Source: a virus (lineage: Duplodnaviria; Heunggongvirae; Uroviricota; Caudoviricetes). From it: a stretch of DNA of 22,611 nucleotides. The stretch lies in the IMG/VR virus record IMGVR_UViG_2687453449_000006, one strand, 5' to 3'. Within the stretch, counting starts at the first letter, position 1; each line of letters starts with the position of its first letter. The notes below the pieces were generated by a model. That model was given only the letters and a program-made list of their open reading frames with translations. It was not told where the DNA came from and searched no databases. Made by a program: the position numbers and the translations under genes. Positions 5,660 through 19,705 of this stretch are shown piece after piece.

Positions 5660-8506
5660 TCAGCTAATCATGATGCCTGCAGTGGCTTTCTTCATCACCA
5701 CAACCAGCAAATCGCTGATACTTGCTGTGGGATACCAGCCATTTACCAGCCATGCCGATACAGAAAATTCCAGTGTCATTACACCACTGCCTGCAGGCAT
5801 ATCAATAACACCCGTATATATCAGCGTATTATCCAGAGCCGTTCGGTTATAAATTTCAGCACCGTTTTTTCGTACTATCAGACGGCATGAGGAGTAGATA
5901 TCAGTATGATCTTGCTCATGTTTAGCGCCACTGAATGCCACCGCCGGAATAACAATTTGCCGGTCAAACGGCTGATCGTCATAAACCCTGACGGTAATGG
6001 TCCCTGATGGCCACCGCTCCGGTGCACGGGAGTCCCGGGGGAAAGCTTTGCCCACTGTTTTAACGAGATCGCCTTCAATCTGGTTCGCGGACAGTTTTCC
6101 CAGAACCCGGCAGTTCTCGTTAATCGTGACGTTGTTGAGCGTCCCGGAGTTCGCATTCACGTTACCGCTAATATCGGCATTTTTCGCCGTCAGCCGCCCG
6201 TCCGGTGTCAGGGAAAATGCCGGAGGATTACCGCCGCTGGTAATGGTGGGAGCCGTCAGATATTTCAGGAACACTTCGTTCATGAATATCTGATCGCCCT
6301 GACCAACAAACATCGGCTTTGTGTTGCCATTCGCAGGATTAATCATCGCAATCCTGTCCGCCGCCAGCAGCACCTGACTCTGCATACCGTCAGGGGTATT
6401 CTCAATACCGGCACCAATACCCGCGATATAAAGGCGTCCGTCCTGCATCTGCTGCAGCTTCACAGCCCACATGCTGTTCAGGTTATTATTTGTATCAACC
6501 TGAACCTTCTGTATCTGCTGGATTGCCGCACTCTGGTCTTCCAGTTTCTTATTGACGGTCTGCGTGATTTCATTACTGACATCCGTGATGGACGTTCTGA
6601 TTTCCGCCAGGTCAGGCGCAAGCTGACCGTTATCAATCTGCGTCCACAACTCCTGAGCCAGATGGGTTTTCCCTATCTCTCCTTTGAAAAAATTCAGATA
6701 GCCGGATGCATCATCACTCGGCTGGCCAACAGCCTCCACGAATGCCGATTTGCCAACGGTGTTCACACTGCGGATGTAAAAATAATAATCATGGCCCGGT
6801 TTGATATTGATACTGGCGGCTATCCAGTACAGCGCCGTGCCAAGATAGCGTGCTGTGGTTTCAACCTGCCTGATATCCGCAATCCGCTTTTCCGAGAACC
6901 AGAACTCAAACTGTACCGTCGGATCATAAACCGCAAGATGCGGCGTGGCGGTTATCTGAAAATACCCCGGTGTCAGCTCAATCTGCGACGGCGCTGCCGG
7001 TGCGGCAATCCGGAACGATACCGACGCCGGCTCGCCCTGCTGCCCCCACGCATTTACTGCCCGGACTGTCAGCCTGTAGTTCCCCAGAGCCAGTTGTGTG
7101 AAGCGGTAAGTGGTTTCCGTCGTCCGGGCCGTGCTGACCAGTCGCTCACGGCCGTCATCCGCTGCCACGGTCAGGCGAAGCAGGAAGCTCACGCCCTTCA
7201 CCACCTTCGGCGTATCCCAGCGGGCCAGCACCTGGTATTCCCCGCTGTCTGCGGTGACTTCTGCGGTCAGGTGCTGCACCGCTGGCGGCGTGACACCATT
7301 TACCGTGCCGCTCTGGTCGCCGTCAAAGTGCGCCCCGTTATCCACGATGGCCTCTTTTTCCGGTACATGCTGCACGGCGGTGATGGCATACGTGCCGTCG
7401 TCGTTCTCACGGATACTCACGCAGCGGAACAGGCGCTGGCGCAACGTCGGCAGCTTCAGCCCCCATACGCTGTATTCAGCAACGCCGTCAGGAACACGGC
7501 TCACTTTCACCTTCACGCCGTCGGTGACGGACTGAACCTCCACGCTGACCGGACTCCCCTGCCCGTCAACCAGGCTTATCAGCGTGGTGCCGGAAGATGG
7601 CAGCGTGATTTCACGGTCGAGCGTCAGCGTCCGGGTCTGGCTGTTTACCGCCAGCACGCGCCCGCCGGTGCGGATACCGGCATAGTCATCATCGCAGATT
7701 TCAATGACATCGCCCGGTACATGGCGAAGCCCTTCGGCACCCACGCTGAAGTCCACGGTCTGCGTTTCCAGCAGCTCCGTTTTAATCAGCCACAGCCCGG
7801 CGCGGTGTGCCTGCCCCCGGCTGGTACAGCCAAAGGCATCCATCTTCGTGACGTTACGACCGTAACGGAGAATGGCCTGCGTATCTTCAACAAGCTCTGT
7901 CGCCGTCTCCCAGCCGTTATTCGGGTCAATCCAGTTCACCTCAACGGCATTATGGCGGTCCTTCAGGGCGCTGAAGCTGTAGCGGAACGGCGCGCCATCA
8001 TCCGGCATCACCACATTACTGCGGTTATAGGTCCACACCTTATCTGATGGTCGGTCCTGCACGAACGTCAGCGTCTGCCCGTTCCATACCGGCATACAGC
8101 GCATCGCCGAGCAGAAATCACTGAGCACATCCCACGCCTTACGCTGCGTGGTCAGGTAGGCATTACAGGTGATGCGCGGCTCCGTGCCGCCAAAACCGTC
8201 CGGCACTGACTGGTCGCAGTACTGGCCGATGACATACAGCGCCCATTTATCCACATCCGCCGCACCAAGACGTTTCCCCATGCCGTAGCGCGGGTGGGTC
8301 AGCATATCCCACAGACACCAGGCCGGGTTGTTGCTGTATGCCGGCTTAAACGTTCCGTCCCAGATACCGCTGTATTGCCGCGTCTGCGGGTTATAGTTCG
8401 ACGGCACCTGCAGAATGCGCCCGCGAAGATGATAATTACGGCTCACCTGCTGGCTGCCGAACTGCTCCGAGTCCACCTGCACGCCGACCAGTGCCGTGTT
8501 CGGGTA
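5660..8506 (-). pseudogene. J: Tail tip / host specificity protein J, N-terminally truncated (C-terminal ~948 codons retained)
   Basis: Translation (..[41 protein letters not shown]... to ...[14 protein letters not shown]...) is collinear with lambda J as recalled. The frame is closed by a stop at 8507-8509 and has no in-frame ATG at its 5' end (first codon in the track is a GTG at 8482). Confidence 0.85.
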
Positions 8507-9011
8507 TCAGTTCATCCAGCGCGGCTGCTTTGTTCATGGCTTTGATGATATCCCGTTTCAGGAAATCAACATGTCGGTTTTCCAGTTCCGGAAAACGCCG
8601 CTGCACCGACAGGGGGATCCCGTCGAGAATACTGGCAATTTCACCTGCGATCCGCGACAGCACGAAAGTACAGAATGCGGTTTCCACCACTTCAGCGGAG
8701 TCTCTGGCATTTTTCAGCTCCTGTGCGTCGGCCTGCGCACGCGTAAGTCGATGGCGTTCGTACTCAATAGTCCCTGGCTGGAGATCTGTCTCGCTGGCCT
8801 GCCGCAGTTCTTCAACTTCCCGGCGCAGCTTTTCGTTCTCAATTTCAGCATCCCTTTCGGCATACCATCTTATAACGGCGGCAGAGTCATAAAGCACCTC
8901 ATTACCCTTGCCACCGCCTCGCAGAACGGGCATTCCCTGTTCCTGCCAGTTCTGAATGGTACGGATACTCGCACCGAAAATGTCAGCCAGCTGCTTTTTG
9001 TTGACTTCCAT
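8436..9011 (-). CDS. nohD: Terminase small subunit Nu1 homolog, C-terminally truncated and fused to 23 out-of-frame codons of J sequence (191 aa)
   Basis: ATG at 9011; residues 1-168 ([46 protein letters not shown]...[14 protein letters not shown]) match lambda Nu1 including the N-terminal winged HTH; after ...CTGATACC (about 8503) the sequence switches to J-derived DNA. Confidence 0.85.
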
Positions 9012-9260
9012 TGTTCATTCCACGGCCAAAAACAGAGAAAGGAAACGACAGAGGCCCAAAAGCTCGTTTTCAGCACCTGTCGTTTCCTTTCTTTTCAGGG
9101 GGTATTTTAAATAAAAACATTAAGTTACGACGAAGAAGAACGGAAATGCCTTAAACCGGAAAATTTTCATAAATAGCGAAAACCCGCGAGGTCGCCGCCC
9201 CGTAACCTGTCGGATCGCCGGAAAGGACCCGCAAAATGATAATAATTATCATCTACATGT
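9012..9260 (-). promoter_or_regulatory. Lambda-type cos region (cosB with R-site/IHF-site-like elements, cosN at 9189-9200, cosQ-side sequence to about 9260)
   Basis: The minus strand reads ...CCGGCGATCCGACAGGTTACGGGGCGGCGACCTCGCGGGTTTTCGCTATTTATGAAAATTTTCCGGTTTAAGG...GAAAGGAAACGACAGGTGCTGAAA..., almost identical to the lambda cohesive-end region as recalled; the 12-nt GGGCGGCGACCT is the reverse complement of 9189-9200. Confidence 0.8.
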
Positions 9261-10741: not shown

Positions 10742-11235
10742 TGCTGACCCCACAAACAGATTTCACGCTCAATCTCACGACGAGTCATGAGACCTTTCCA
10801 TTGCTTACCGCCAGCATATGTCCAGCGACGTAGCTGATCACATGCGCCTTTGATATCGCCCTGGTTTATTTTGCGAAGAAGCGTCGATGTTCTGAAATTG
10901 CCAGCGCCCACGTTGTAAACGAACGAGTAAAGAGCGCCGCGCGTTGTTTCCGGTATATCAACTTTTATGTACGGGTTAATTTGTCTGGCGACCGTGGCAA
11001 GGTCTTTATTCAGGAGGGCTTTGCATTCTGCTTTGGTATACGTTTTACCGAGCATGATGTCTTTTCCTGTATGCCCGTGACATACAGTCCATACACCAAC
11101 AATATCTTTGTATGGTATGTAGCTGACACCTTCCAGACCATCGTTACCACTTGGGCCAGTGATTAACACTGATGCTATAGCAATTGCTCCGCCACCAATA
11201 GCAGCAGCAACGGCTTTTCGTAATGATGGAGGCAT
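10738..11235 (-). CDS. rrrD: SAR endolysin (phage 21 R-type lysozyme, 165 aa)
   Basis: ATG at 11235; N-terminal signal-arrest-release segment [20 protein letters not shown] followed by a lysozyme domain; matches R21/RrrD as recalled. Confidence 0.9.
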
Positions 11236-11450
11236 TATTCACCTCTCGCAGCCTTGCGCTTATCTTCTTTAATCTTGAAATAAAGGTTTGTCAGGTACGT
11301 CAGCAGGCCAAATACCAGGCTACCCAGCACACCTATTGCTGCCCACTGTGAGGGCGTGACTTTATCGAGCAGCTGTAAAAACCAGTAACCGGCACTACCT
11401 GCTGAGGTGCCATAGGCGACACCCGTTGTTAACTTATCCATGGATTTCAT
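11235..11450 (-). CDS. essD: Pinholin S21-type holin/antiholin with dual-start motif (71/68 aa)
   Basis: ATG at 11450 and a second ATG three codons later (MKSMDK...), two TM segments, charged C-terminus [13 protein letters not shown]; the track's longer 86-aa form begins at a TTG. Confidence 0.88.
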
Positions 11451-12038
11451 AACCCCACCTCGCAGACAAAGCGGGTGTAAATTGAGGGAATACAACGTAT
11501 CGCAAAAAAGCAGAAACGTAACAGACTCGGAGTCAGTGAATAACTCAGGTATTGAGTTATCAGCTAATATCGAGACTCAAAAAATGGAAAAACCAGCTCG
11601 ACGGCGGGTTTAAGCTGTGTGACGAAGTAACCACTCTTAACAGCATAACCAATTTTTTACGTACGTAAACCACTGAATGATATTTATGAGAATGCTACCG
11701 AGTGTTCAAAACACCACCACAAATATATAAGAAAACCTCAACAAATAACCAATAAATAATTTCCGGCGTTATTTTTAGTTGATTTAAATTAAACCACTGA
11801 ATTATAGAACCCCCATAAATAACAGCCATTAATATAAATTAGCTAATAGGTTTATTTTTGTTCAAATAAGAGCCATAAATAGGTTTCGATAGAAAAAGTT
11901 CAGATAAAAATAGAGATCTACTTCACAAATTAAATGAGAAACTAAAACTTACATCTTGAAATAATCACATTGATTAGATGAATATTTATCGCGCAGTGAC
12001 ATCATTTTTTAATAATAGTTCAAAAAAAAGGGCTCACG

Positions 12039-13121
12039 ATGAAAAAATTAACAGTGGCAATTTCTGCTGTAGCTGCATCAGTACTGATGGCGATGTCTGC
12101 TCAGGCAGCTGAAATTTATAATAAAGACAGTAACAAGCTGGATCTGTACGGGAAAGTTAATGCCAAGCACTACTTTTCCTCTAACGATGCAGATGATGGT
12201 GATACTACTTATGCCCGTCTTGGCTTCAAAGGTGAAACCCAAATCAACGATCAACTGACTGGTTTCGGTCAGTGGGAATATGAATTCAAAGGCAACCGCG
12301 CTGAATCTCAAGGTTCCTCCAAAGACAAAACCCGTCTTGCATTTGCAGGCCTGAAATTCGGTGACTACGGCTCAATCGATTACGGCCGTAACTACGGTGT
12401 AGCATACGACATCGGTGCGTGGACTGACGTTCTGCCAGAATTCGGTGGCGATACCTGGACCCAAACAGATGTGTTCATGACTGGTCGCACCACTGGTGTT
12501 GCAACCTATCGTAACAACGACTTCTTTGGTCTGGTCGATGGCCTGAACTTTGCTGCTCAGTATCAGGGTAAAAATGACCGCACTGACGTAACTGAAGCCA
12601 ATGGTGATGGTTTCGGTTTCTCCACTACTTATGAGTATGAAGGATTCGGCGTGGGTGCAACCTATGCTAAATCAGATCGCACTGACGGTCAGGTCGCCTA
12701 TGGTAAGAGCAAATTCAATGCCTCCGGCAAAAATGCGGAAGTATGGGCTGCAGGCCTGAAATATGATGCGAACAATATCTATCTGGCTACCACATATTCT
12801 GAAACTCAGAATATGACCGTTTTTGGTAATAACCATATTGCAAACAAAGCACAAAACTTTGAAGCAGTAGCACAATATCAGTTTGACTTCGGTCTGCGAC
12901 CATCTGTTGCTTACCTTCAGTCAAAAGGTAAAGACCTTGGTGTTCATGGTGACCGAGACTTAGTCAAGTATGTCGATGTCGGTGCTACTTACTACTTTAA
13001 TAAAAACATGTCCACTTTTGTTGATTACAAAATCAACTTAATTGACGATAGTAAGTTTACCAAAACAGCTGGTATTGATACCGACGACATCGTCGCTGTA
13101 GGTCTGGTGTATCAGTTCTAA
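12039..13121 (+). CDS. nmpC: Outer-membrane general porin NmpC (OmpC/OmpF family), apparently intact (360 aa)
   Basis: ATG at 12039; signal peptide [30 protein letters not shown]; porin signature with C-terminal ...VAVGLVYQF; uninterrupted 360-codon frame. Confidence 0.9.
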
Positions 13122-14729: not shown

Positions 14730-15184
14730 TACGCCTCCTGCTTATCACGCAGCAGCTGGAACTCGCAGCTCTGCGGAATAGTCAGGTGGCAGCCAATATT
14801 CATCGCCCAGGCTTCAACCTTACACAGGAAGACATACATCTCTCCGGTATCAAGGTCGGAGGTATGGCGTAACGACTGGATAGTGGTGATATCACCGGTT
14901 ACGACATCAACCAGGTCTTTGGTTTCATAACCGAGATATGTGTGTTTGAGAGCATCTTTTACCCAAGCTGGAGTGGCGAACGTTTTACCCCTGCTGATGA
15001 GGTATTCACTGATTTCGCTGTACCACATGTGGCTGAGTGCATTCTGGGAAAGACTGCGTTTCTCACGCCACGGTTTAAGCACCATGCGAAAGCATTTGCC
15101 CTCCTCCAGATAAGGCTGGATCTGCCGACCGATAGCGGTGAAGTTGCCGCGATGTAATTTGATGCCGTCTTGTGAGAGGTTCAC
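14729..15184 (-). CDS. ybcN: NinB-family recombination protein YbcN (151 aa)
   Basis: 151-codon frame beginning at a GTG (15184-15182) with SD GGAGGTG upstream; an in-frame stop lies immediately upstream so no ATG alternative exists; matches YbcN/NinB as recalled. Confidence 0.8.
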
Positions 15185-15307
15185 GCTTCACCTCCGCAGA
15201 GGTCAAACGCTAGATGCAAAGAATTGCAGGTGCATTTCTGCATCTGTGAAGGGAGAAGAGAGTTTGGATTGTATGTGCGCATAAACGTCCCCGTTTAGCG
15301 CAGAAGT

Positions 15308-15336
15308 CACCGGAGTTGTTCAGGCTCCGGTGACAT
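15308..15336. other. Perfect 10-bp inverted repeat (stable hairpin) in the ybcM-ybcN intergenic region
   Basis: GTCACCGGAG-ttgttcagg-CTCCGGTGAC, about 65-90 nt downstream of the ybcM stop; not followed by a U-run on the minus strand, so it is not a canonical intrinsic terminator. Confidence 0.4.
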
Positions 15337-15398
15337 AATTATGCCGTGTTGATTTCCCAAAATCAAAATCGATAGAATTGCTCCTTCTTAAAACACTT

Positions 15399-16196
15399 TT
15401 ACTCTCTGGAAGCTTTTCTTATCTCTCTTGGTGTTATATTAAAACGATTATGAAATCTTTCAGTAAAACGAGAAGGACACTTATAACCATTTTCTCTGGC
15501 AATCTCGCTTATAGGTTTTACCGTCGTTTGTATAGCAGACAACGCATTATTTAACCTCACATCGTCCAGTATACTTTGGAAACTTACCCCCTCGCTTGCT
15601 AGACGGCGATGTAATGTAGAAACAGAAATGTAGAGATATCGAGCAACCTTGTTTGCTGTCCATTTTGTGCCGGGTTCGGATAGCAGCAGGTTATAACAAC
15701 GACTTATCAATGATTGTTTACTATATGATAAAAGTAAATGATTAACATGATTCACTCCTAACGAAAGTAGAACGCCCATTGCTAAGTGCTCCTGAATTTT
15801 AGTTGAGAAGCCTCGGGAAACAGATGTTTTTAGTTGCTCCCAACAATATATTAACTCAGGATTCTGAGGTAAAAAGAAACTTGTTTTGTTACGTATTTGA
15901 TCAGTTACCGTATAAAGTTTTTGGAAACTCTCAATTAAATCAATGGGTAAGTAAAGCATTTCTGCAAGATAAAGCCCTGCTTCAGGATAATTCTCAATAT
16001 AAAATTCATAACCACAAGGAAATAATATTATTTGATTATTATCAACAGTTAAAGTATGCGTCTCCCAATTGATAACTTTCTTTCCCTGACGGATACGACA
16101 CAAAGCTGGCATAAGAGGCTTAACCCTATGAATCTCATGATGTTTATGCATCCGTATTTCTTCGATCTTTAAGTTAGTCTTACCTCTTGCCAGCAT
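15399..16196 (-). CDS. ybcM: AraC-family transcriptional regulator YbcM (265 aa)
   Basis: ATG at 16196; C-terminal AraC HTH (...[42 protein letters not shown]...); AT-rich. Confidence 0.85.
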
Positions 16197-16205
16197 ACTC
16201 TCACC

Positions 16206-16757
16206 CTACTTTATCTCATAAACTGGTGTTATCTCAGCGGTTGCGATTTTATTAGCATTAAGCATATAACCAACTAACGCTCCGCTGGAGTTAGAATCTA
16301 CAGGAATCTTTTCAGTTTTTAGAGCCCATACTTTAAACTGGTAATGATGTGGTTTATCTCCTTTAGGAGGACATGCGCCACCAAACCCAGCATAGCCAAA
16401 ATCATTTCGGCCTTGAACAGCACCAGTCGGCAGTTTTGTTCCATCACGTCTCCCTGCATCAACGGGCAAATATGTTACTGTTGCTGGAATATTAACAACA
16501 GTCCAATGCCACCAACCACTGCCTGTAGGTGCATCTGGATCATATACAGTTACGGCAAAGCTTTTGGTACCTTCAGGAACACCAGACCAGGTTAATGAGG
16601 GCGATGTATTACCACCTTCACACCCAAATCCAGAAAAGACATGAGACGTTGTAAGTTGCTCTCCTGTTTTTATTTCATTACTAGTGACCTGAAATGCTGC
16701 AGCCTGCGCAGAAAATGTTATGAATGCCAATACAGTTGAAACGATAAGTGTTTTCAT
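16206..16757 (-). CDS. ybcL: Periplasmic PEBP/RKIP-family protein YbcL (183 aa)
   Basis: ATG at 16757; signal peptide MKTLIVSTVLAFITFSAQA; PEBP-like core (...YDPDAPTGSGWWHW...GFGGACPPKGDKPHHYQFKVWAL...). Confidence 0.85.
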   Translation of the reverse strand: MKTLIVSTVLAFITFSAQAAAFQVTSNEIKTGEQLTTSHVFSGFGCEGGNTSPSLTWSGVPEGTKSFAVTVYDPDAPTGSGWWHWTVVNIPATVTYLPVDAGRRDGTKLPTGAVQGRNDFGYAGFGGACPPKGDKPHHYQFKVWALKTEKIPVDSNSSGALVGYMLNANKIATAEITPVYEIK

Positions 16758-16974
16758 AAAAACCTCTTTGTTATGACCTATCGTTATTTTATTTGATATT
16801 CCTTTATCTCATTATGCATAAAGGCGCAATGTTCATGCAAAAGCAATCACAATTGTACCCCCAACCCAATTATTTGCCACAATATACACAAAGCACATTG
16901 ATACTATCTAAAAACTCTGCTTTATTATTAGTAATACCTACGAAAGTCGGTGTTATTTTTTAACCTACCATTCA

Positions 16975-17022
16975 AAATACGTGACATACACCATTTTGCT
17001 CATAATAATTTGTCACGTATTT
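16975..17022. promoter_or_regulatory. Perfect 12-bp inverted repeat with 24-bp spacer in the ybcK-ybcL intergenic region (candidate regulator or recombinase binding site)
   Basis: AAATACGTGACA (16975-16986) ... TGTCACGTATTT (17011-17022), about 220 bp upstream of the ybcL start and 200 bp downstream of the ybcK stop. Confidence 0.35.
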
Positions 17023-17221
17023 TCAGTATTTGAATCTGCGACCAAGAGTTCTCACCTAACAAATGATTAAGATTGTATAGCTCATTTACTACCCCAATAC
17101 AGCCGTACAAAACTCGCTTGTGGGAGCAAACAAAGTAATTACCCATTAAGTTTCGTTAAAGATAATTAATTCTGTCTTGCACTTTATCACCATAGCATAA
17201 CTTAAAATCCGAGATCATTAT

Positions 17222-18748
17222 TTAGAAATAAATCTCACCATCAACCATATATTTGAGAGCACTTATCGCCTGCTGGGCGGATATTACTTTCATTAAAGGA
17301 TAGTGTTTAAAAACAATGCCATTCATAAAATAGATATCACAGGTTTTATTATCCGTATTAATTATGATTTTTTCGAATGTTTTATAGGCAAGTGTACGGC
17401 ATAACTCTCGTCCATTTTTACTGGTTAAGTCAATAGCATAAAAATCACTGAATGAATTTACACCTTTACTCTTCAAAGTTTTCAATGATACCGAAGCCCT
17501 TCGTAATTCCTTATCTAATAGTCTTATTTTCTCTGCTATAGCGGTAACTTCAGGCGCGACAGACAATGCAACGATTAAATTATTAATTTTCATCTGAAGC
17601 TCAATAATTTTTAACTCTAAAGTTTCATTAGCATCTTTCTTGTTTTCAACTGGTTGAATTTTGCTACAATTAAAAAGCAATTCATTAATGATATTATAAT
17701 CAACCAAATCTCTTTTTATTGATGGCCTGTCACATCGATGTAATCTTCTCATCGGACAAACATAATAGCCATGCAAACTTCCAGATACCGCATGAACAAT
17801 CATGGTATTACCACAAGCCTCACACTTCATAACTGTTCGAAGTAGATTTATTAGCATAGGATTCTTGCTACTATTGCTAATACCAAAAGGTGCCAACCGA
17901 ATTTCCTGTACAGCGTAAAACAAATCATCTGATATGACTCTGGGATAATAGCCAGCGATTTCACTTATCCCTTTCCCTCTTGCACGATATGAAGGTACGC
18001 ATATACCTATCAGAGCTTTATTCGCTAATAATTTTTCAATTACAGAAGGTCCCCATGCACTTTCTTTTCCTGAGAAATTCTTTACAGCATGATCATTTAA
18101 ATACTTGGCTATTGCATTCAATGAGCGCCTTTCCATCCTGAGTTTAAAAATTAGCTCAATAGTTTTCACCCTGTCGGGGTCTGGAACAAAAGCCGTTCTT
18201 TTGTCATCTAAGGAGAGCCATCTCGGACAAGACGCCGTCATAATCGTACCTGATTCCAGTGCATCCTGCCGTTTTTTCTTCCATGATAATTTAACCCGAC
18301 TTGACTTTATCTCGCTTTCTTCATTTGCCCTTTGTGCTATAAGTATGGCTTTTATTAATGAATATGGCTCATTCAAAGAGTCAATATTATAGACTGTATT
18401 GTCGCAAAGAGTTATAACATCAATACCGTGATTCAAAATCAATTTCAGACGTTCAATCGCTTCACCGACTTTTTCTCTTGAAAGTCTGTCCAGACTTTCA
18501 ACTAACAATGTAGTTCCTGGCAATATATAACCATGCTCTATAGCATCTAAAAATTCCGAAAAAGCTCCTGATTGTGCATGCTTTCCTTTGAATGCACTTA
18601 ATCCTAAATCTTCATATGTTATGGTATCAAGATAATAATCACTATTTACCTTTAACCATTCAGCAATAAGTCTTCTCTGTCGGTTTAATGAGTCGCCAGA
18701 CATCTGACCTGGTGATGAAAATCGCATATATGCTATGGCTTTTTTCAT
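17222..18748 (-). CDS. ybcK: Large serine recombinase family protein YbcK (508 aa)
   Basis: ATG at 18748 with SD AGGTG; N-terminal resolvase-type catalytic motif AYMRFSSPGQ...R; central recombinase domain; Cys cluster CEACGNT...CPMRRLHRC (zinc ribbon); C-terminal coiled-coil region. Confidence 0.85.
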   Translation of the reverse strand: MKKAIAYMRFSSPGQMSGDSLNRQRRLIAEWLKVNSDYYLDTITYEDLGLSAFKGKHAQSGAFSEFLDAIEHGYILPGTTLLVESLDRLSREKVGEAIERLKLILNHGIDVITLCDNTVYNIDSLNEPYSLIKAILIAQRANEESEIKSSRVKLSWKKKRQDALESGTIMTASCPRWLSLDDKRTAFVPDPDRVKTIELIFKLRMERRSLNAIAKYLNDHAVKNFSGKESAWGPSVIEKLLANKALIGICVPSYRARGKGISEIAGYYPRVISDDLFYAVQEIRLAPFGISNSSKNPMLINLLRTVMKCEACGNTMIVHAVSGSLHGYYVCPMRRLHRCDRPSIKRDLVDYNIINELLFNCSKIQPVENKKDANETLELKIIELQMKINNLIVALSVAPEVTAIAEKIRLLDKELRRASVSLKTLKSKGVNSFSDFYAIDLTSKNGRELCRTLAYKTFEKIIINTDNKTCDIYFMNGIVFKHYPLMKVISAQQAISALKYMVDGEIYF

Positions 18749-18946
18749 GGTGACACCTGCTAACGTATGCTTTTATAAACCTTAGTGGTGGGATATAATT
18801 TTTGTTTAATTTTTATTTAAAAAGACAATTAAGGTCACATTATCTTGAATATACAACAATAATCGTATTGCAATTTTCTTACGCCATAATCTTGAAAGCA
18901 CAAAAGAATACATAAAAAATAAAGACATTAACAAAAAGCATAAAAC

Positions 18947-18975
18947 GAGGCTCATATAAATATAAGAGCCTCCAT
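18947..18975 (-). terminator. Rho-independent terminator downstream of emrE
   Basis: Minus strand reads GAGGCTC-ttatatttatat-GAGCCTC followed by GTTTTATGCTTTTTG (U-rich), about 30 nt after the emrE stop. Confidence 0.5.
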
Positions 18976-19002
18976 ATTTTAGTCGTTTAGAAACAAATTA
19001 TT

Positions 19003-19335
19003 TTAATGTGGTGTGCTTCGTGACAATAAATTAATAACCAACACACCGGCACAAATCAACATCATGCCTATAATGGCTGGCAGGTCCAGCCGTTGGCCGA
19101 AAAATCCCCATAACAGTAAGCTAATCAGGACAATACCGACTCCTGACCAGATACCATAAGCAATCCCTGTAGGAATATAAGCCAGCGTCTGAGCTAATAA
19201 CCAGAATGATGCACAATAACAAATAATTGTACCAACAGATGGCCATAACCGTGTAAAACCTTCTGAAAACTTCATTAAGGTTGTACCAATGACCTCTGCA
19301 AGTATTGCACCACCAAGATAAATATAAGGGTTCAT
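19003..19335 (-). CDS. emrE: SMR-family multidrug efflux transporter EmrE (110 aa)
   Basis: ATG at 19335 (MNPYIYLGGAILAEVIGTTLMKFSEGFTRLWPSV...); four TM helices with the conserved Glu14; the track's longer ORF begins at an upstream TTG. Confidence 0.9.
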   Translation of the reverse strand: MNPYIYLGGAILAEVIGTTLMKFSEGFTRLWPSVGTIICYCASFWLLAQTLAYIPTGIAYGIWSGVGIVLISLLLWGFFGQRLDLPAIIGMMLICAGVLVINLLSRSTPH

Positions 19336-19350
19336 AGCATATTCTTTCCT

Positions 19351-19386
19351 GTTCAAACTGGAGAGAATTGTACTACAGTTTGAACT
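19351..19386 (-). other. 10-bp perfect inverted repeat immediately upstream of the emrE ribosome-binding site
   Basis: GTTCAAACTG (19351-19360) ... CAGTTTGAAC (19377-19386) with a 16-nt spacer, in the 67-nt gap between ren and emrE. Confidence 0.35.
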
Positions 19387-19402
19387 CAACTCACCTGTTT
19401 CA

Positions 19403-19705
19403 TCATTGTGTTCCCATTGATGTTCTTTTATATACCCTCAGTACCCGTTTCATCGCGGCACTCTGGCGACACTCCTTAAAAATCAGATTCGTGCTCACCT
19501 TTCCTTCCCGTTCTTCTCTGGTAGCGAACCGGTAATACACCGTTCGCCAGACCTTACCATCAACGACCAGGATTCCTGCCCGCGCCATTTTAGCCGCAGC
19601 CTGATTTATGCTGGTTACGGTTGCACCTGTTACCGCGGCAACGTCCTGTGCACAGAAGCTCTTATGCGTCCCCAGGTAATGAATAATTGCCTCTTTGCCC
19701 GTCAT
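19403..19705 (-). CDS. renD: Ren-like protein (lambda Ren homolog, 100 aa)
   Basis: ATG at 19705; MTGKEAIIHYLGTHKSFCAQDVAAVTGATVTSINQAAAKMARAGILVVDGKVWRTVYYRFATREEREGK... matches lambda Ren as recalled; its start overlaps the end of the P fragment, as in lambda. Confidence 0.8.
   Translation of the reverse strand: MTGKEAIIHYLGTHKSFCAQDVAAVTGATVTSINQAAAKMARAGILVVDGKVWRTVYYRFATREEREGKVSTNLIFKECRQSAAMKRVLRVYKRTSMGTQ

What the first reader, a model, noticed from the sequence alone, without database searches (positions are those of the whole stretch)
15399..18940. AT-rich cargo island inside the prophage carrying a large serine recombinase (ybcK) with PEBP and AraC genes, plus a perfect 12-bp inverted repeat
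ybcK encodes a complete large serine recombinase (catalytic Ser motif, recombinase domain, zinc ribbon, coiled coil) even though the prophage already has a tyrosine integrase at its end. It lies in a markedly AT-rich block with ybcL and ybcM, between emrE and the nin region. The 12-bp perfect inverted repeat at 16975-17022 could be a recombinase or regulator site. This block may be the footprint of a second integrative element, or a DNA-inversion/regulatory module whose substrate is unknown.
Basis: partly seen in the sequence, partly recalled or inferred. Interest (0 to 1): 0.5.

Follow-up and report, generated by a model that had tools for sequence, protein, structure and literature searches.

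The report
Known DLP12 prophage cargo genes ybcK-ybcL-ybcM
This is the already annotated ybcK-ybcL-ybcM cargo region of the E. coli DLP12 lambdoid prophage: a patchwork of independently swapped gene modules, one of which is an intact serine recombinase kept by selection whose DNA target is still unknown, and the nearby inverted repeat does not look like that target.

Summary
The window is E. coli C DLP12 (100% match). ybcK is a complete large serine recombinase (LSR): catalytic R9/S11/D87/R88/R91, recombinase domain, 4-Cys zinc ribbon, coiled coil. The block is 36% GC against 47-48% in its flanks. The inverted repeat has 13-nt, not 12-nt, perfect arms (16974-16986 / 17011-17023, 24-nt spacer; about 3% of shuffles match it).

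The block is not one element. emrE, ylcJ-ybcK and ybcL-ybcM occur apart in thousands of E. coli genomes. At least about ten different cargoes replace ybcLM downstream of ybcK. No att-like ends, inversion isoforms or recent excision products were found.

ybcK is under strong purifying selection (dN/dS 0.07-0.10) and is carried by deposited, named lambdoid phages that, where the end of the prophage was seen, have their own tyrosine integrases. It moves between phages as a gene-sized module (68-nt leader plus ORF).

The repeat lies in a 268-bp spacer unique to the DLP12 arrangement. It is absent from every other ybcK context. It is not the YbcM operator, has no second copy, and is invariant, so comparison says nothing about its function.

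All genes are already annotated and YbcL and YbcM are characterised. YbcK's substrate remains open.

The parts
15338..15366 (-). Promoter-like TTGATT-17-CATAAT at the fixed nin-side boundary of the variable cargo slot. It reads into ylcH-ybcN.
   Evidence: Found by the promoter scan. All 13 cargo variants become homologous again exactly at this -35 hexamer, window 15366-15368.
15399..16196 (-). ybcM, an AraC-family regulator that autoregulates ybcLM.
   Evidence: Pfam HTH_18 and HTH_AraC. RefSeq annotation. ChIP-exo and an H2O2-survival phenotype are reported in PMC8464067.
16206..16757 (-). ybcL, a periplasmic PEBP/RKIP-like protein.
   Evidence: Pfam PBP, E = 3e-42. Annotation. The uropathogenic E. 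coli variant suppresses neutrophil migration (PMC4810123).
16825..16858 (.). YbcM ChIP-exo binding site, the strongest of that protein's 12 sites in the genome.
   Evidence: The PMC8464067 dataset gives 570015-570048 with signal/noise 357. Those coordinates are in NC_000913.2 numbering, shown by the position of csrB. They map to 68-101 nt upstream of the ybcL ATG.
16852..16880 (-). ybcLM promoter, GTGGCA-17-TACAAT.
   Evidence: Promoter scan. The same hexamers are reported as a constitutive RpoD promoter in an H-NS-bound spacer (PMC3946193).
16913..17180 (.). A 268-bp orphan spacer ('segment C') that carries the inverted repeat and is found only in the DLP12-type arrangement.
   Evidence: Junctions mapped by blastn. 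A 316-bp query spanning this spacer and its repeat (window 16900-17215) matches 675 of 5,426 genomes, close to the 671 that hold the full block, always as a single copy. It is present only in DLP12-type phage and plasmid-collection records.
16974..17023 (.). Perfect 13-nt inverted repeat, AAAATACGTGACA-N24-TGTCACGTATTTT.
   Evidence: As RNA it folds at -19.3 kcal/mol, z = -2.6. It is invariant in the three copies aligned, from E. coli C, K-12 and HS-02.
17222..18748 (-). ybcK, a 508-aa large serine recombinase.
   Evidence: dN/dS is 0.07-0.10.
18810..18838 (-). ybcK promoter, GTGACC-17-TAAAAA, lying inside ylcJ.
   Evidence: The sequence was read. The hexamers and H-NS binding are from PMC3946193. 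A Rho-dependent terminator in the ybcK leader is reported in PMC4150792.
18806..18955 (-). ylcJ, a 49-aa hydrophobic small protein that always accompanies ybcK in E. coli phages.
   Evidence: Pfam YlcJ, E = 2e-35. Annotation.
18947..18972 (-). Hairpin GAGGCTC-N12-GAGCCTC just after emrE, a likely emrE terminator.
   Evidence: Read directly from the sequence. Function is inferred, not tested.
19003..19335 (-). emrE, an SMR efflux pump. It is the one cargo module shared by all the arrangements.
   Evidence: Pfam Multi_Drug_Res..
16913..18995 (.). A 2,083-bp indel (segment C + ybcK + ylcJ) relative to the emrE-ybcLM islet found at the fliE/yedF locus.
   Evidence: Locus L003 matches window 15182-16912 and 18996-19411, with only 4 bp between the two matches.

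Best explanation
The block is the annotated ybcK-ybcL-ybcM part of the cargo ('moron') region of DLP12-type lambdoid phages. It sits at the ren|nin junction, co-oriented with the early-right operon. It is a composite, not a single element.

The modules:
1. emrE.
2. ylcJ-ybcK.
3. A cargo slot. Here it holds a 268-bp spacer followed by the self-regulated ybcL-ybcM operon. In sister phages it holds about ten other cargoes.

The modules are reshuffled by ordinary lambdoid mosaic recombination, with junctions at functional boundaries. The nin-side junction is always at the -35 hexamer of a conserved promoter-like site.

YbcK is a catalytically intact large serine recombinase maintained by selection. 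It is not the prophage's integrase. It travels between temperate phages of Enterobacterales as a gene-sized module (leader plus ORF) and lands in the two classic cargo positions: the start of the nin region, or just after the tail-fibre genes.

Inferred, not shown: YbcK is made mainly during early lytic or infection-stage transcription, because in the lysogen it is silenced by H-NS, Rho and Hfq/polyphosphate. It would then act as a site-specific recombinase on a DNA target that is not next to its gene.

The 13-nt inverted repeat belongs to the spacer upstream of the ybcLM promoter, not to ybcK. Its most likely role is a weak A-tract/stem/T-tract hairpin that insulates ybcLM from ybcK read-through. 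It may have no role at all.
For: Identity and annotation.

Modularity:
- 671 genomes have the full block, about 700 have ybcK only, and about 2,300 have emrE-ybcLM only.
- Example contexts are an O157 prophage at icd, a prophage remnant beside trkG, and the fliE/yedF islet.
- Exact junctions were mapped.

Variable slot:
- 80 IMG/VR loci show gaps of about 280 to 2,555 bp between ybcK and ylcH-ybcN.
- The contents are unrelated to one another.
- The right boundary is always 15366-15368, at TTGATT-17-CATAAT.
- The left boundaries differ: 41, 66 and about 280-490 nt after the ybcK stop.
- The ren|nin junction also varies in a phage that lacks ybcK (PhiR5_1).

YbcK intact and selected.

YbcK in deposited phage genomes: ybcK lies between ren and the nin genes in phages 4A7, 1W, Turner and the PhiR phages. 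A tyrosine integrase at the prophage end was seen directly in E. coli C, the O157 prophage and the Pantoea prophage.

Gene-sized mobility:
- Recombinases 77-84% identical to the prophage-end Atlantibacter copy sit internally, in the order O/P - cargo - LSR - DinI - DUF1367 - NinG - Q.
- DNA homology between end-located and internal loci covers only the 68-nt leader plus the ORF, and stops at the stop codon.

Silencing: PMC3946193 (H-NS and promoters), PMC4150792 (Rho terminator) and PMC10954037 (Hfq/polyphosphate).

Placement of the repeat:
- It lies 199 nt after the ybcK stop and about 95 nt upstream of the ybcLM -35.
- As RNA it folds at -19.3 kcal/mol, z = -2.6.
- Canonical terminators occupy the equivalent position after the recombinase gene in 4A7 and in loci L008 and L012.
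Against: - No substrate for YbcK was identified, so its activity is inferred from sequence, fold and selection only.
- The repeat's geometry (two symmetric 13-nt arms about 37 bp centre to centre, in a 50-bp site about 200 bp from the recombinase gene) resembles the outer zinc-ribbon-binding motifs of serine-integrase attP sites. A fossil or active att site is therefore not excluded.
- As a terminator the hairpin is poor. The stem is AU-rich, the loop is 24 nt, there are only four U residues, and the terminator scan did not call it.
- Four relatives lie at prophage ends (Yersinia, Atlantibacter, Erwinia, Ewingella). In two loci, Atlantibacter (a prophage-end copy) and Kluyvera, the gene lies next to a copy of the ssrA 3' end. 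This would also fit an integrase role in those phages.
- The direction of the 2,083-bp indel, insertion or deletion, is unresolved.
Confidence: 0.7

Rival explanations
1. ybcK plus the inverted repeat is an intact integrase-attP module captured from another phage. It would give DLP12-type phages a second, serine-integrase route of integration, with the 50-bp repeat as attP.
For: - YbcK is an integrase-type large serine recombinase under purifying selection.
- The repeat is 50 bp long, symmetric at its outer 13 nt, and about 200 bp from the gene, which is typical attP geometry and distance (established knowledge of the A118, PhiC31 and Bxb1 sites; not tested here).
- The repeat is unlikely by chance.
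- Several relatives lie at prophage ends, and in two loci (Atlantibacter, Kluyvera) the gene lies beside an ssrA att core.
Against: - The repeat is absent from all other ybcK arrangements in E. coli (4A7, O157 and PSS-08 types, and about ten IMG/VR variants), although those alleles are 96-98% identical and equally constrained.
- The inner 12 nt on each side of the centre are not symmetric; only 15 of the 25 positions on each side are symmetric overall.
- None of the 80 IMG/VR ybcK loci shows chromosomal DNA downstream of ybcK: wherever the contig extends far enough, the ylcH-ybcN flank follows within about 0.3-2.6 kb.
- No second copy or split copy of the repeat exists in E. coli genomes or in the GTDB representative genomes.
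- Homology between distant loci stops at the stop codon.
Confidence: 0.1
2. ylcJ-ybcK, with or without its 3' flank, is a small self-mobilising serine-recombinase element of about 2.1 kb that inserted just after the emrE stop codon.
For: - There is a clean 2,083-bp indel relative to the fliE-locus emrE-ybcLM islet, with only 4 unmatched bp at the empty site.
- In 4A7 a 38-nt, 84% identical direct repeat of the emrE 3' end lies 283-320 nt after the ybcK stop, bracketing a unit of about 2,073 bp.
- In locus L119 a 181-nt, 86% identical direct repeat of the DUF1367 5' end brackets a 3-kb insert carrying LSR, KGG and DinI.
Against: - The two 3' flanks (DLP12 segment C, and the common flank in 4A7/PSS-08, which is an antirepressor C-terminal remnant) are not homologous beyond about 41-72 nt.
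- The joined ends of the 2,083-bp segment show no symmetry of the kind seen in att sites (by inspection).
- The empty site occurs only at 81-89% identity in 2,628 genomes, never at 95% or more, so there has been no recent excision.
- Serine recombinases do not create long direct repeats. Repeats of 38-181 nt at 84-86% identity fit illegitimate or homologous joins between different phages better.
- Across genera only the leader and the ORF are shared.
Confidence: 0.07
3. YbcK drives the cargo turnover in the slot next to it, as a serine-recombinase analogue of an integron platform.
For: - A hypervariable slot begins within 41-490 nt of the ybcK stop and always ends at the same nucleotide, give or take 1.
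- In other genera the recombinase also sits among cargo genes: an autotransporter, DinI, KGG, a methylase and SIR2.
Against: - The fixed boundary coincides with the -35 of a promoter-like site, which is a functional boundary and not a recognisable recombination site.
- The ybcK-side boundaries are scattered.
- Cargo ends share no motif.
- The same junction is variable in a phage without ybcK.
- This pattern is what ordinary lambdoid mosaicism produces.
Confidence: 0.05
4. The inverted repeat is a binding site for a host or phage regulator or nucleoid protein that controls ybcLM, or it is a chance feature of AT-rich DNA with no function.
For: - It lies about 95-145 bp upstream of the ybcLM -35, in a spacer reported as H-NS-bound.
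- Similar repeats arise in about 3% of shuffles of the window.
- The fliE-locus ybcLM copies do without it.
Against: - It is not the YbcM site, which maps to 16825-16858.
- No known palindromic operator has 13-nt arms 24 nt apart (my own knowledge, not tested).
- There is no sequence variation to test for constraint.
Confidence: 0.3

Closest known systems
Phage serine integrases (SPbeta SprA/YokA, Listeria A118 Int, PhiC31 Int, Bxb1 Int)
   Same: YbcK has the same four-part architecture: catalytic domain with the Ser/Arg/Asp set, a long alpha-E helix, a recombinase domain, and a zinc ribbon with an embedded coiled coil. The profile match has E = 7e-21 and Foldseek gives E = 3e-18 over the full length. 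It belongs to PHROG 95, 'integrase'.
   Different: - Identity is only 14-21%, and plain phmmer finds no PDB relative.
- The gene is internal to the prophage rather than at its end.
- The E. coli C prophage, and the O157 and Pantoea prophages whose ends were seen, integrate with a tyrosine integrase.
- No attP/attB pair and no directionality factor is known or detectable.
Lambdoid 'morons' / lysogenic-conversion cargo (lambda bor and lom; DLP12's own emrE, nmpC and borD/iss)
   Same: The block is AT-rich relative to the phage backbone. It has its own promoters and is silenced by H-NS. It is inserted between conserved genes at the ren|nin junction, and it is variably present among otherwise near-identical phages.
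   Different: One cargo gene encodes a full-size site-specific recombinase rather than a host-fitness factor. The region is a chain of three separately exchangeable units.
Serine DNA invertases of cryptic prophages and phages (Pin of e14, PinQ, PinR, Gin, Cin, Hin)
   Same: They share the serine-recombinase catalytic domain (PHROG 125 'DNA invertase' matches residues 1-258). They are also prophage-borne, and some relatives sit right after tail-fibre genes.
   Different: Invertases are about 190 aa with a C-terminal HTH, and they flank an invertible segment bounded by inverted crossover sites. YbcK is 508 aa with a zinc ribbon and coiled coil. Here the repeat arms are 24 nt apart, and no inverted form was seen.
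Large serine recombinases of small cargo elements (TnpX of Tn4451, TndX of Tn5397, CcrAB of SCCmec)
   Same: In those systems too, a large serine recombinase is linked to a resistance or accessory cargo inside a larger replicon.
   Different: Those elements have defined ends, circular intermediates and a conserved crossover dinucleotide. No such ends were found here.
YbcL (PEBP/RKIP homologue) and YbcM (AraC-type regulator) of E. coli K-12 and uropathogenic E. coli
   Same: These are the same genes: 99.9% DNA identity to K-12.
   Different: None. The uropathogenic variant that suppresses neutrophil migration (PMC4810123) may correspond to the ybcK-less emrE-ybcLM arrangement seen at the fliE/yedF locus of, for example, a dog prostatic-abscess isolate. 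This link is my inference; the phylogroup and pathotype of those strains were not checked.

Membership tests
Large serine recombinase (serine integrase) - protein family | N-terminal resolvase-type catalytic domain with the nucleophilic Ser and the conserved Arg/Asp/Arg set. | tested here: met
   Pfam Resolvase, E = 5.5e-19. R9, S11, D87, R88 and R91 are invariant in 33 family members.
Large serine recombinase (serine integrase) - protein family | Recombinase domain followed by a zinc-ribbon domain with four Cys and an embedded coiled coil. | tested here: met
   Pfam Recombinase and Zn_ribbon_recom. C309, C312, C331 and C339 are nearly invariant. Helices 370-397 and 401-426 appear in the model. 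The profile aligns to SPbeta and A118 through the coiled coil, and the fold search agrees.
Large serine recombinase (serine integrase) - working system | A cognate attP/attB pair (about 40-50 bp, imperfect dyad around a 2-bp crossover), normally with attP next to the gene. | tested here: inconclusive
   The only candidate is the 50-bp repeat. It is absent from all other ybcK contexts, has no partner copy and has an asymmetric inner half. Binding was not testable.
Large serine recombinase (serine integrase) - working system | The gene lies at the end of the integrated element, and the element is bounded by attL and attR. | tested here: not met
   ybcK is internal, between ren/emrE and the nin genes. 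The prophage ends carry IntD and tRNA-Arg. The gene is internal in the same way in O157, 4A7, Pantoea, L119, L123 and L125.
Large serine recombinase (serine integrase) - working system | Demonstrated recombination activity. | not testable with these tools
   No recombinase study of YbcK was found among 30 papers that mention it.
Lambdoid moron / cargo region | Base composition distinct from the flanking phage genes. | tested here: met
   GC is 0.36 against 0.47-0.48.
Lambdoid moron / cargo region | Present or absent, or replaced, in otherwise homologous phages, with junctions between conserved genes. | tested here: met
Lambdoid moron / cargo region | Own transcription signals, independent of the phage operons. 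| tested here: met
   Promoter hexamers were found at 16880-16852 and 18838-18810. They match the published constitutive RpoD promoters (PMC3946193). YbcM autoregulation is reported in PMC8464067. Whether the block has its own terminators is inferred only.
Serine DNA-invertase switch (Hin/Gin/Pin type) | A small recombinase (about 190 aa) with a C-terminal HTH. | tested here: not met
   YbcK is 508 aa with integrase-type C-terminal domains.
Serine DNA-invertase switch (Hin/Gin/Pin type) | An invertible segment bounded by inverted crossover sites, with both orientations found in populations. | tested here: not met
   The repeat arms enclose only 24 nt. Of the 675 genomic copies of the 316-bp region, 669 are at least 99% identical to the window. 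The three copies aligned have an identical spacer in the same orientation. No long inverted repeats flank any segment of the block.
Discrete integrative element inside the prophage | Defined ends (att-like or direct repeats) bounding the whole block, and empty sites in close relatives. | tested here: not met
   No bounding repeats were found. The block splits into modules with different distributions. Empty sites for the 2,083-bp segment exist only in old lineages at 81-89% identity.

The most novel reading that the evidence does not exclude
YbcK-family large serine recombinases would be a distinct class of accessory phage recombinases. They are kept under strong selection in Enterobacterales temperate phages, several of which are seen to integrate with tyrosine integrases. 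They are expressed with the early genes and act in trans on a target that is not next to the gene, for example a secondary attachment site, a resident prophage, or a competitor's or the host's DNA. In this reading the DLP12 50-bp repeat is a captured or fossil attP-like site for such an enzyme.
Probability: 0.1. Interest if true: 0.65.

Novelty: already known. Interest (0 to 1): 0.28.

Why it matters
E. coli K-12 and about a quarter of complete E. coli genomes (roughly 1,400 of 5,426) carry an intact large serine recombinase under strong purifying selection. No substrate has ever been assigned to it, even though it sits in one of the best-studied prophages. If its target were found, that could reveal a second recombination system acting on lambdoid phages or their hosts, and it could add an Enterobacterales-native serine integrase to the genome-engineering toolbox.

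As it stands, the locus itself is ordinary, annotated cargo. This analysis mainly removes the tempting link between ybcK, the neighbouring ybcLM genes and the inverted repeat.

Tried and rejected
1. The repeat as the YbcM operator. Rejected: the ChIP-exo site maps to 16825-16858, about 115 bp away.

2. The repeat as a constant companion of ybcK. Rejected: it is absent from the 4A7, O157 and PSS-08 arrangements and from about ten IMG/VR variants. No analogous repeat follows the gene in the O157 or 4A7 arrangements, and the downstream flanks of the recombinase loci from other genera share no sequence with the DLP12 spacer.

3. A second copy of the repeat.
- None was found in 5,426 E. coli genomes with a 316-bp query, and none in the phage or plasmid collections.
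- An 11-nt-arm pattern scan of 185,579 species genomes hit only E. coli, one contaminant contig, and unrelated paired palindromes in Opitutaceae.

4. The 24-nt palindrome inside ybcK (18478-18501) as an enhancer-like site. Rejected: it encodes the ESLDRLS catalytic motif and is not palindromic in eight homologues.

5. The 2,083-bp indel as an active excisable element. Rejected: no empty site exists at 95% identity or more, and the ends lack symmetry.

6. Integron-like capture at a fixed site. Rejected: the fixed boundary is the -35 of a promoter-like site, and the other boundary is scattered.

7. ybcK as a decaying pseudogene. Rejected: dN/dS is 0.07-0.10, the ORF is intact in all five alleles compared, and the gene is present in deposited phage genomes.

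8. An anti-phage defence role. PADLOC gave no hit for any of the four proteins tested (YbcK, YbcL, YbcM, YlcJ).

9. A structured RNA in the ybcK-ybcL spacer. Rfam gave no hit at either the gathering threshold or E <= 1.

10. Whether the prophage-end relatives (Atlantibacter, Yersinia, Erwinia, Ewingella) are the sole integrases of their prophages. Left unresolved: only 10 kb of flank is available, and no isolated phage carries a relative at 40-60% identity.

Full report
**What the window is.** The 3.5-kb region is 100% identical to E. coli C (NZ_CP029371.1) and 99.9% identical to K-12 MG1655. RefSeq annotation places it in the DLP12-type lambdoid prophage, which is integrated beside tRNA-Arg with the tyrosine integrase IntD at its end. 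The window reads in the reverse of the K-12 orientation.

All genes of the block lie on the - strand, co-oriented with ren, the nin genes and quuD, that is, with the early-right operon:
- ybcM 15399-16196
- ybcL 16206-16757
- ybcK 17222-18748
- ylcJ 18806-18955
- emrE 19003-19335

**Checking the observation: YbcK.** YbcK (508 aa) matches Pfam Resolvase, Recombinase and Zn_ribbon_recom. In an alignment of 33 relatives at 29-97% identity, R9, S11, D87, R88 and R91 are invariant. The four zinc-ribbon cysteines (C309, C312, C331, C339) are nearly invariant.

Plain phmmer finds nothing in the PDB. A family profile, however, aligns to the SPbeta and A118 serine integrases through the recombinase domain, zinc ribbon and coiled coil. 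The AlphaFold model (mean pLDDT 82.9) shows a catalytic domain, a long alpha-E helix, a recombinase domain, a zinc ribbon, a two-helix coiled coil at 370-426 and a small C-terminal sheet. Its best structural matches are the SPbeta, PhiC31, Bxb1 and A118 integrases. PHROGs files it under 'integrase'.

**Checking the observation: composition and repeat.** The block is 36.0% GC, against 46.8% and 47.7% on its two sides. In 300 composition-preserving shuffles of the window, 8 contained a repeat at least this good.

**The block is a mosaic, not one element.** Of 5,426 complete E. coli genomes:
- 671 hold the whole block;
- about 700 hold ybcK without ybcLM;
- about 2,300 hold ybcLM at about 92% identity without ybcK.

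Example contexts:
- An O157:H7 prophage at icd carries ren-emrE-ylcJ-ybcK followed directly by ylcH-ybcN.
- A prophage remnant beside trkG carries an antirepressor remnant and a hypothetical gene in the slot.
- Another prophage, and phage 4A7, carry an alpha/beta hydrolase there.
- Other strains, for example a dog prostatic-abscess isolate, carry emrE-ybcL-ybcM as an islet at the fliE/yedF locus beside IS remnants.

Mapping the junctions by blastn gives five segments:
- emrE (18996-19411), shared by all arrangements.
- ylcJ-ybcK (17181-18995), shared by all prophage types but absent from the fliE islet.
- A 268-bp 'segment C' (16913-17180) that holds the repeat and is found only in the DLP12 arrangement.
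- The ybcLM module (15369-16912), shared with the fliE islet.
- The nin flank (15368 and below).

The fliE islet matches 15182-16912 and 18996-19411 with only 4 bp between the matches. It therefore differs from DLP12 by a clean 2,083-bp indel.

**A hypervariable slot with one fixed edge.** Eighty IMG/VR loci that carry ybcK at 97-100% identity show gaps from about 280 to about 2,555 bp between ybcK and ylcH-ybcN. They hold at least about ten mutually unrelated cargoes.

Every variant regains homology at window 15366-15368. This is exactly the -35 hexamer of a conserved promoter-like TTGATT-17-CATAAT that reads into ylcH-ybcN.

The ybcK-side edge is not fixed. It lies 41 nt after the stop codon in DLP12 compared with the others, 66 nt in O157 compared with 4A7, and about 280-490 nt among the rest. 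Most of the rest share a 3' flank that is a P22-type antirepressor C-terminal remnant. One variant has an extra insert of about 1.3 kb, 53 nt after the stop.

The same ren|nin junction is also variable in a phage without ybcK (PhiR5_1). One edge pinned to a functional boundary and one scattered edge is what ordinary lambdoid mosaic recombination gives. It is not what a site-specific cassette system would give.

**Is ybcK alive?** Pairwise Nei-Gojobori estimates between the C/K-12, O157, 4A7 and PSS-08 alleles give dS up to 0.15 with dN/dS of 0.07-0.10. All five ORFs compared are intact.

The gene is present in deposited phage genomes (4A7, 1W, Turner, the PhiR phages), between ren and the nin genes. 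Of the prophages inspected, the one in E. coli C lies beside tRNA-Arg and the one in O157 beside icd, each with a tyrosine integrase at its end; a third ybcK-carrying prophage remnant lies beside trkG. So ybcK is not tied to one integration site and is not these prophages' integrase. It is also not a decaying remnant.

**The wider family.** Relatives at 40-61% identity and about 505-522 aa are common in Enterobacterales. Their positions fall into groups:
- Internal, between the replication genes and Q: Pantoea (with a tyrosine integrase at the prophage end), L119, L123 and L125.
- Just after the tail-fibre and tail-assembly genes at a prophage end: Yersinia, Atlantibacter (540 bp from the 3' end of ssrA), Erwinia and Ewingella.
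- In a plasmid- or ICE-like context in Citrobacter koseri.

Both phage positions are the classic cargo sites of lambdoid genomes. The neighbours are typical cargo: an autotransporter, DinI, KGG, a DNA methylase and SIR2.

Recombinases 77-84% identical to the end-located Atlantibacter protein sit internally in other phages. DNA homology between the end-located and internal loci covers only a 68-nt leader plus the ORF, and stops at the stop codon. The gene therefore moves as a gene-sized mosaic module without att-bearing flanks.

Two observations keep an integrase role open for some members:
- In Atlantibacter and Kluyvera a copy of the ssrA 3' end, about 154 nt of shared sequence and a terminator lie next to the gene, in opposite orientations.
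- In L119 a 181-nt, 86% identical direct repeat of the DUF1367 5' end brackets a 3-kb insert carrying LSR, KGG and DinI.

Both are explained at least as well by cargo sitting near a tyrosine-integrase attP, and by joins between different phages.

**The inverted repeat: where it occurs.** It lies 199 nt after the ybcK stop. The published ybcLM promoter (GTGGCA-17-TACAAT) is at window 16880-16852, so the repeat is about 95-145 nt upstream of its -35.

The strongest YbcM ChIP-exo site in the genome is given as 570015-570048, in NC_000913.2 numbering (shown by the position of csrB). It maps to window 16825-16858. The repeat is therefore not the YbcM operator.

The 316-bp region around the repeat occurs in 675 genomes, always once, close to the 671 that hold the full block. 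It occurs only in DLP12-type records of the phage and plasmid collections. A pattern scan of 185,579 species genomes found it only in E. coli, apart from a contaminant contig and unrelated paired 19-bp palindromes in Opitutaceae.

None of the other ybcK arrangements has an analogous repeat. The repeat is invariant in the three copies aligned, including the most divergent one listed, so comparative data cannot speak to constraint.

**The inverted repeat: what it might be.** As RNA it forms a 13-bp stem with an inner 6-bp stem (-19.3 kcal/mol, z = -2.6). It has the A4-stem-T4 layout of a bidirectional terminator. However, the stem is AU-rich, the loop is long, and the terminator scan does not call it. 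Canonical terminators occupy the equivalent position after the recombinase gene in 4A7, Atlantibacter and Kluyvera.

Its geometry (50 bp, symmetric outer 13 nt) also resembles a serine-integrase attP. Against that, the inner halves are asymmetric, with only 15 of 25 positions per side symmetric in total. No Rfam family matches.

**Tests of mobility.**
- No direct or inverted repeats bound the block.
- The joined ends of the 2,083-bp segment show no dyad symmetry.
- A chimeric 'empty-site' query finds full-length matches in 2,628 genomes, all at 81-89% identity and none at 95% or more. There is therefore no sign of recent excision.
- A 38-nt, 84% identical copy of the emrE 3' end lies 283-320 nt after ybcK in 4A7. 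It hints at an old join at the end of emrE, but the 3' flanks in 4A7 and DLP12 are unrelated.
- A perfect 11+11 palindrome inside ybcK (18478-18501) encodes the ESLDRLS motif and is not conserved as a palindrome in eight homologues.
- PADLOC finds no defence-system match.

**What is already known.**
- YbcL is a crystallised periplasmic PEBP/RKIP homologue. Its uropathogenic E. coli variant suppresses neutrophil migration (PMC4810123).
- YbcM is an AraC-type regulator that binds its own promoter and affects peroxide survival (PMC8464067).
- The ybcK and ybcLM promoters are constitutive RpoD promoters in H-NS-bound spacers (PMC3946193).
- The ybcK leader holds a Rho-dependent terminator (PMC4150792).
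- ybcK DNA is bound by Hfq in a polyphosphate-dependent way (PMC10954037).
- Overexpressing ybcK raises sabinene tolerance, by an unexplained route (PMC7181518).
- None of the 30 papers that mention ybcK tests recombination.

**Verdict.** The interpretation as a second integrative element or an inversion module is not supported.

The region is known, annotated prophage cargo built from independently exchanged modules. YbcK is a real large serine recombinase maintained by selection, and its substrate is unknown. The inverted repeat is a local feature of a spacer unique to DLP12 and cannot be tied to YbcK.

The open question of what YbcK recombines is genuine. The tools here cannot answer it, and it needs the binding, expression and long-read experiments listed under the next steps.

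Noticed in passing
window 9036-9051 / 9077-9092: This is the strongest inverted repeat in the window: 16-nt perfect arms with a 25-nt spacer, 25-80 bp upstream of the terminase small-subunit gene nohD (8436-9011, - strand). From knowledge of lambda cosB (inverted R3/R2 sites around an IHF site), it is probably the pair of terminase-binding R elements of the DLP12 cos region.
   Followed up: partly
window 15338-15368: All cargo variants downstream of ybcK end at the same nucleotide, give or take 1. That nucleotide is the -35 hexamer of a conserved promoter-like TTGATT-17-CATAAT reading into ylcH-ybcN. The hexamers also form a TTGAT-N8-ATCAA dyad that is conserved across variants.
   Followed up: partly
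L098-L117 (Opitutaceae MAG contigs), e.g. L100 407-454: The pattern scan turned up about 18 loci in Verrucomicrobiota (Opitutaceae) genomes. Each carries two copies of a 19-bp perfect palindrome, TGTCACGTAATACGTGACA, spaced about 45 bp apart. They look like paired operators of an unknown regulator and are unrelated to the E. coli repeat.
   Followed up: no
L119 9652-9851 and 12633-12831: A direct repeat of about 200 nt (86% identical), made of the 5' end of a DUF1367 nin-region gene, brackets a 3-kb insert. The insert carries a recombinase 59% identical to YbcK, a KGG stress protein and DinI, in a lambdoid prophage.
   Followed up: partly
L008 11916-12097 and L012 11680-11864: In Atlantibacter and Kluyvera the recombinase gene lies within 110-540 bp of a copy of the ssrA 3' end, about 154 nt of shared sequence and a GC-rich terminator. 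The orientation relative to the gene is opposite in the two genera. In Atlantibacter the ssrA copy is the intact tmRNA gene.
   Followed up: partly
L004 5737-5774 and 7810-7847 (phage 4A7): A 38-nt, 84% identical duplicate of the emrE 3' end lies 283-320 nt after the ybcK stop. It brackets a ylcJ-ybcK unit of about 2,073 bp, close in size to the 2,083-bp indel seen between DLP12 and the fliE-locus islet.
   Followed up: partly
window 18478-18501: A perfect 11+11 palindrome (TTGAAAGTCTG-GA-CAGACTTTCAA) lies inside ybcK and encodes the catalytic ESLDRLS motif. It is the most symmetric 50-bp site in the window, but it is not conserved as a palindrome in eight homologues, so it is probably a coincidence of codon choice.
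   Followed up: yes
window 12039-13121: The DLP12 porin gene (nmpC, annotated here as ompC-like, 360 aa) is intact in E. coli C. From memory, it is interrupted by IS5 in K-12. K-12 also has IS3 inside renD, whereas ren is intact in this window.
   Followed up: no
L065-L095 slot variants, e.g. L095 about 11160-12500: One ybcK variant carries an extra insert of about 1.3 kb exactly 53 nt after the ybcK stop codon. It is probably an IS element and was not identified.
   Followed up: no
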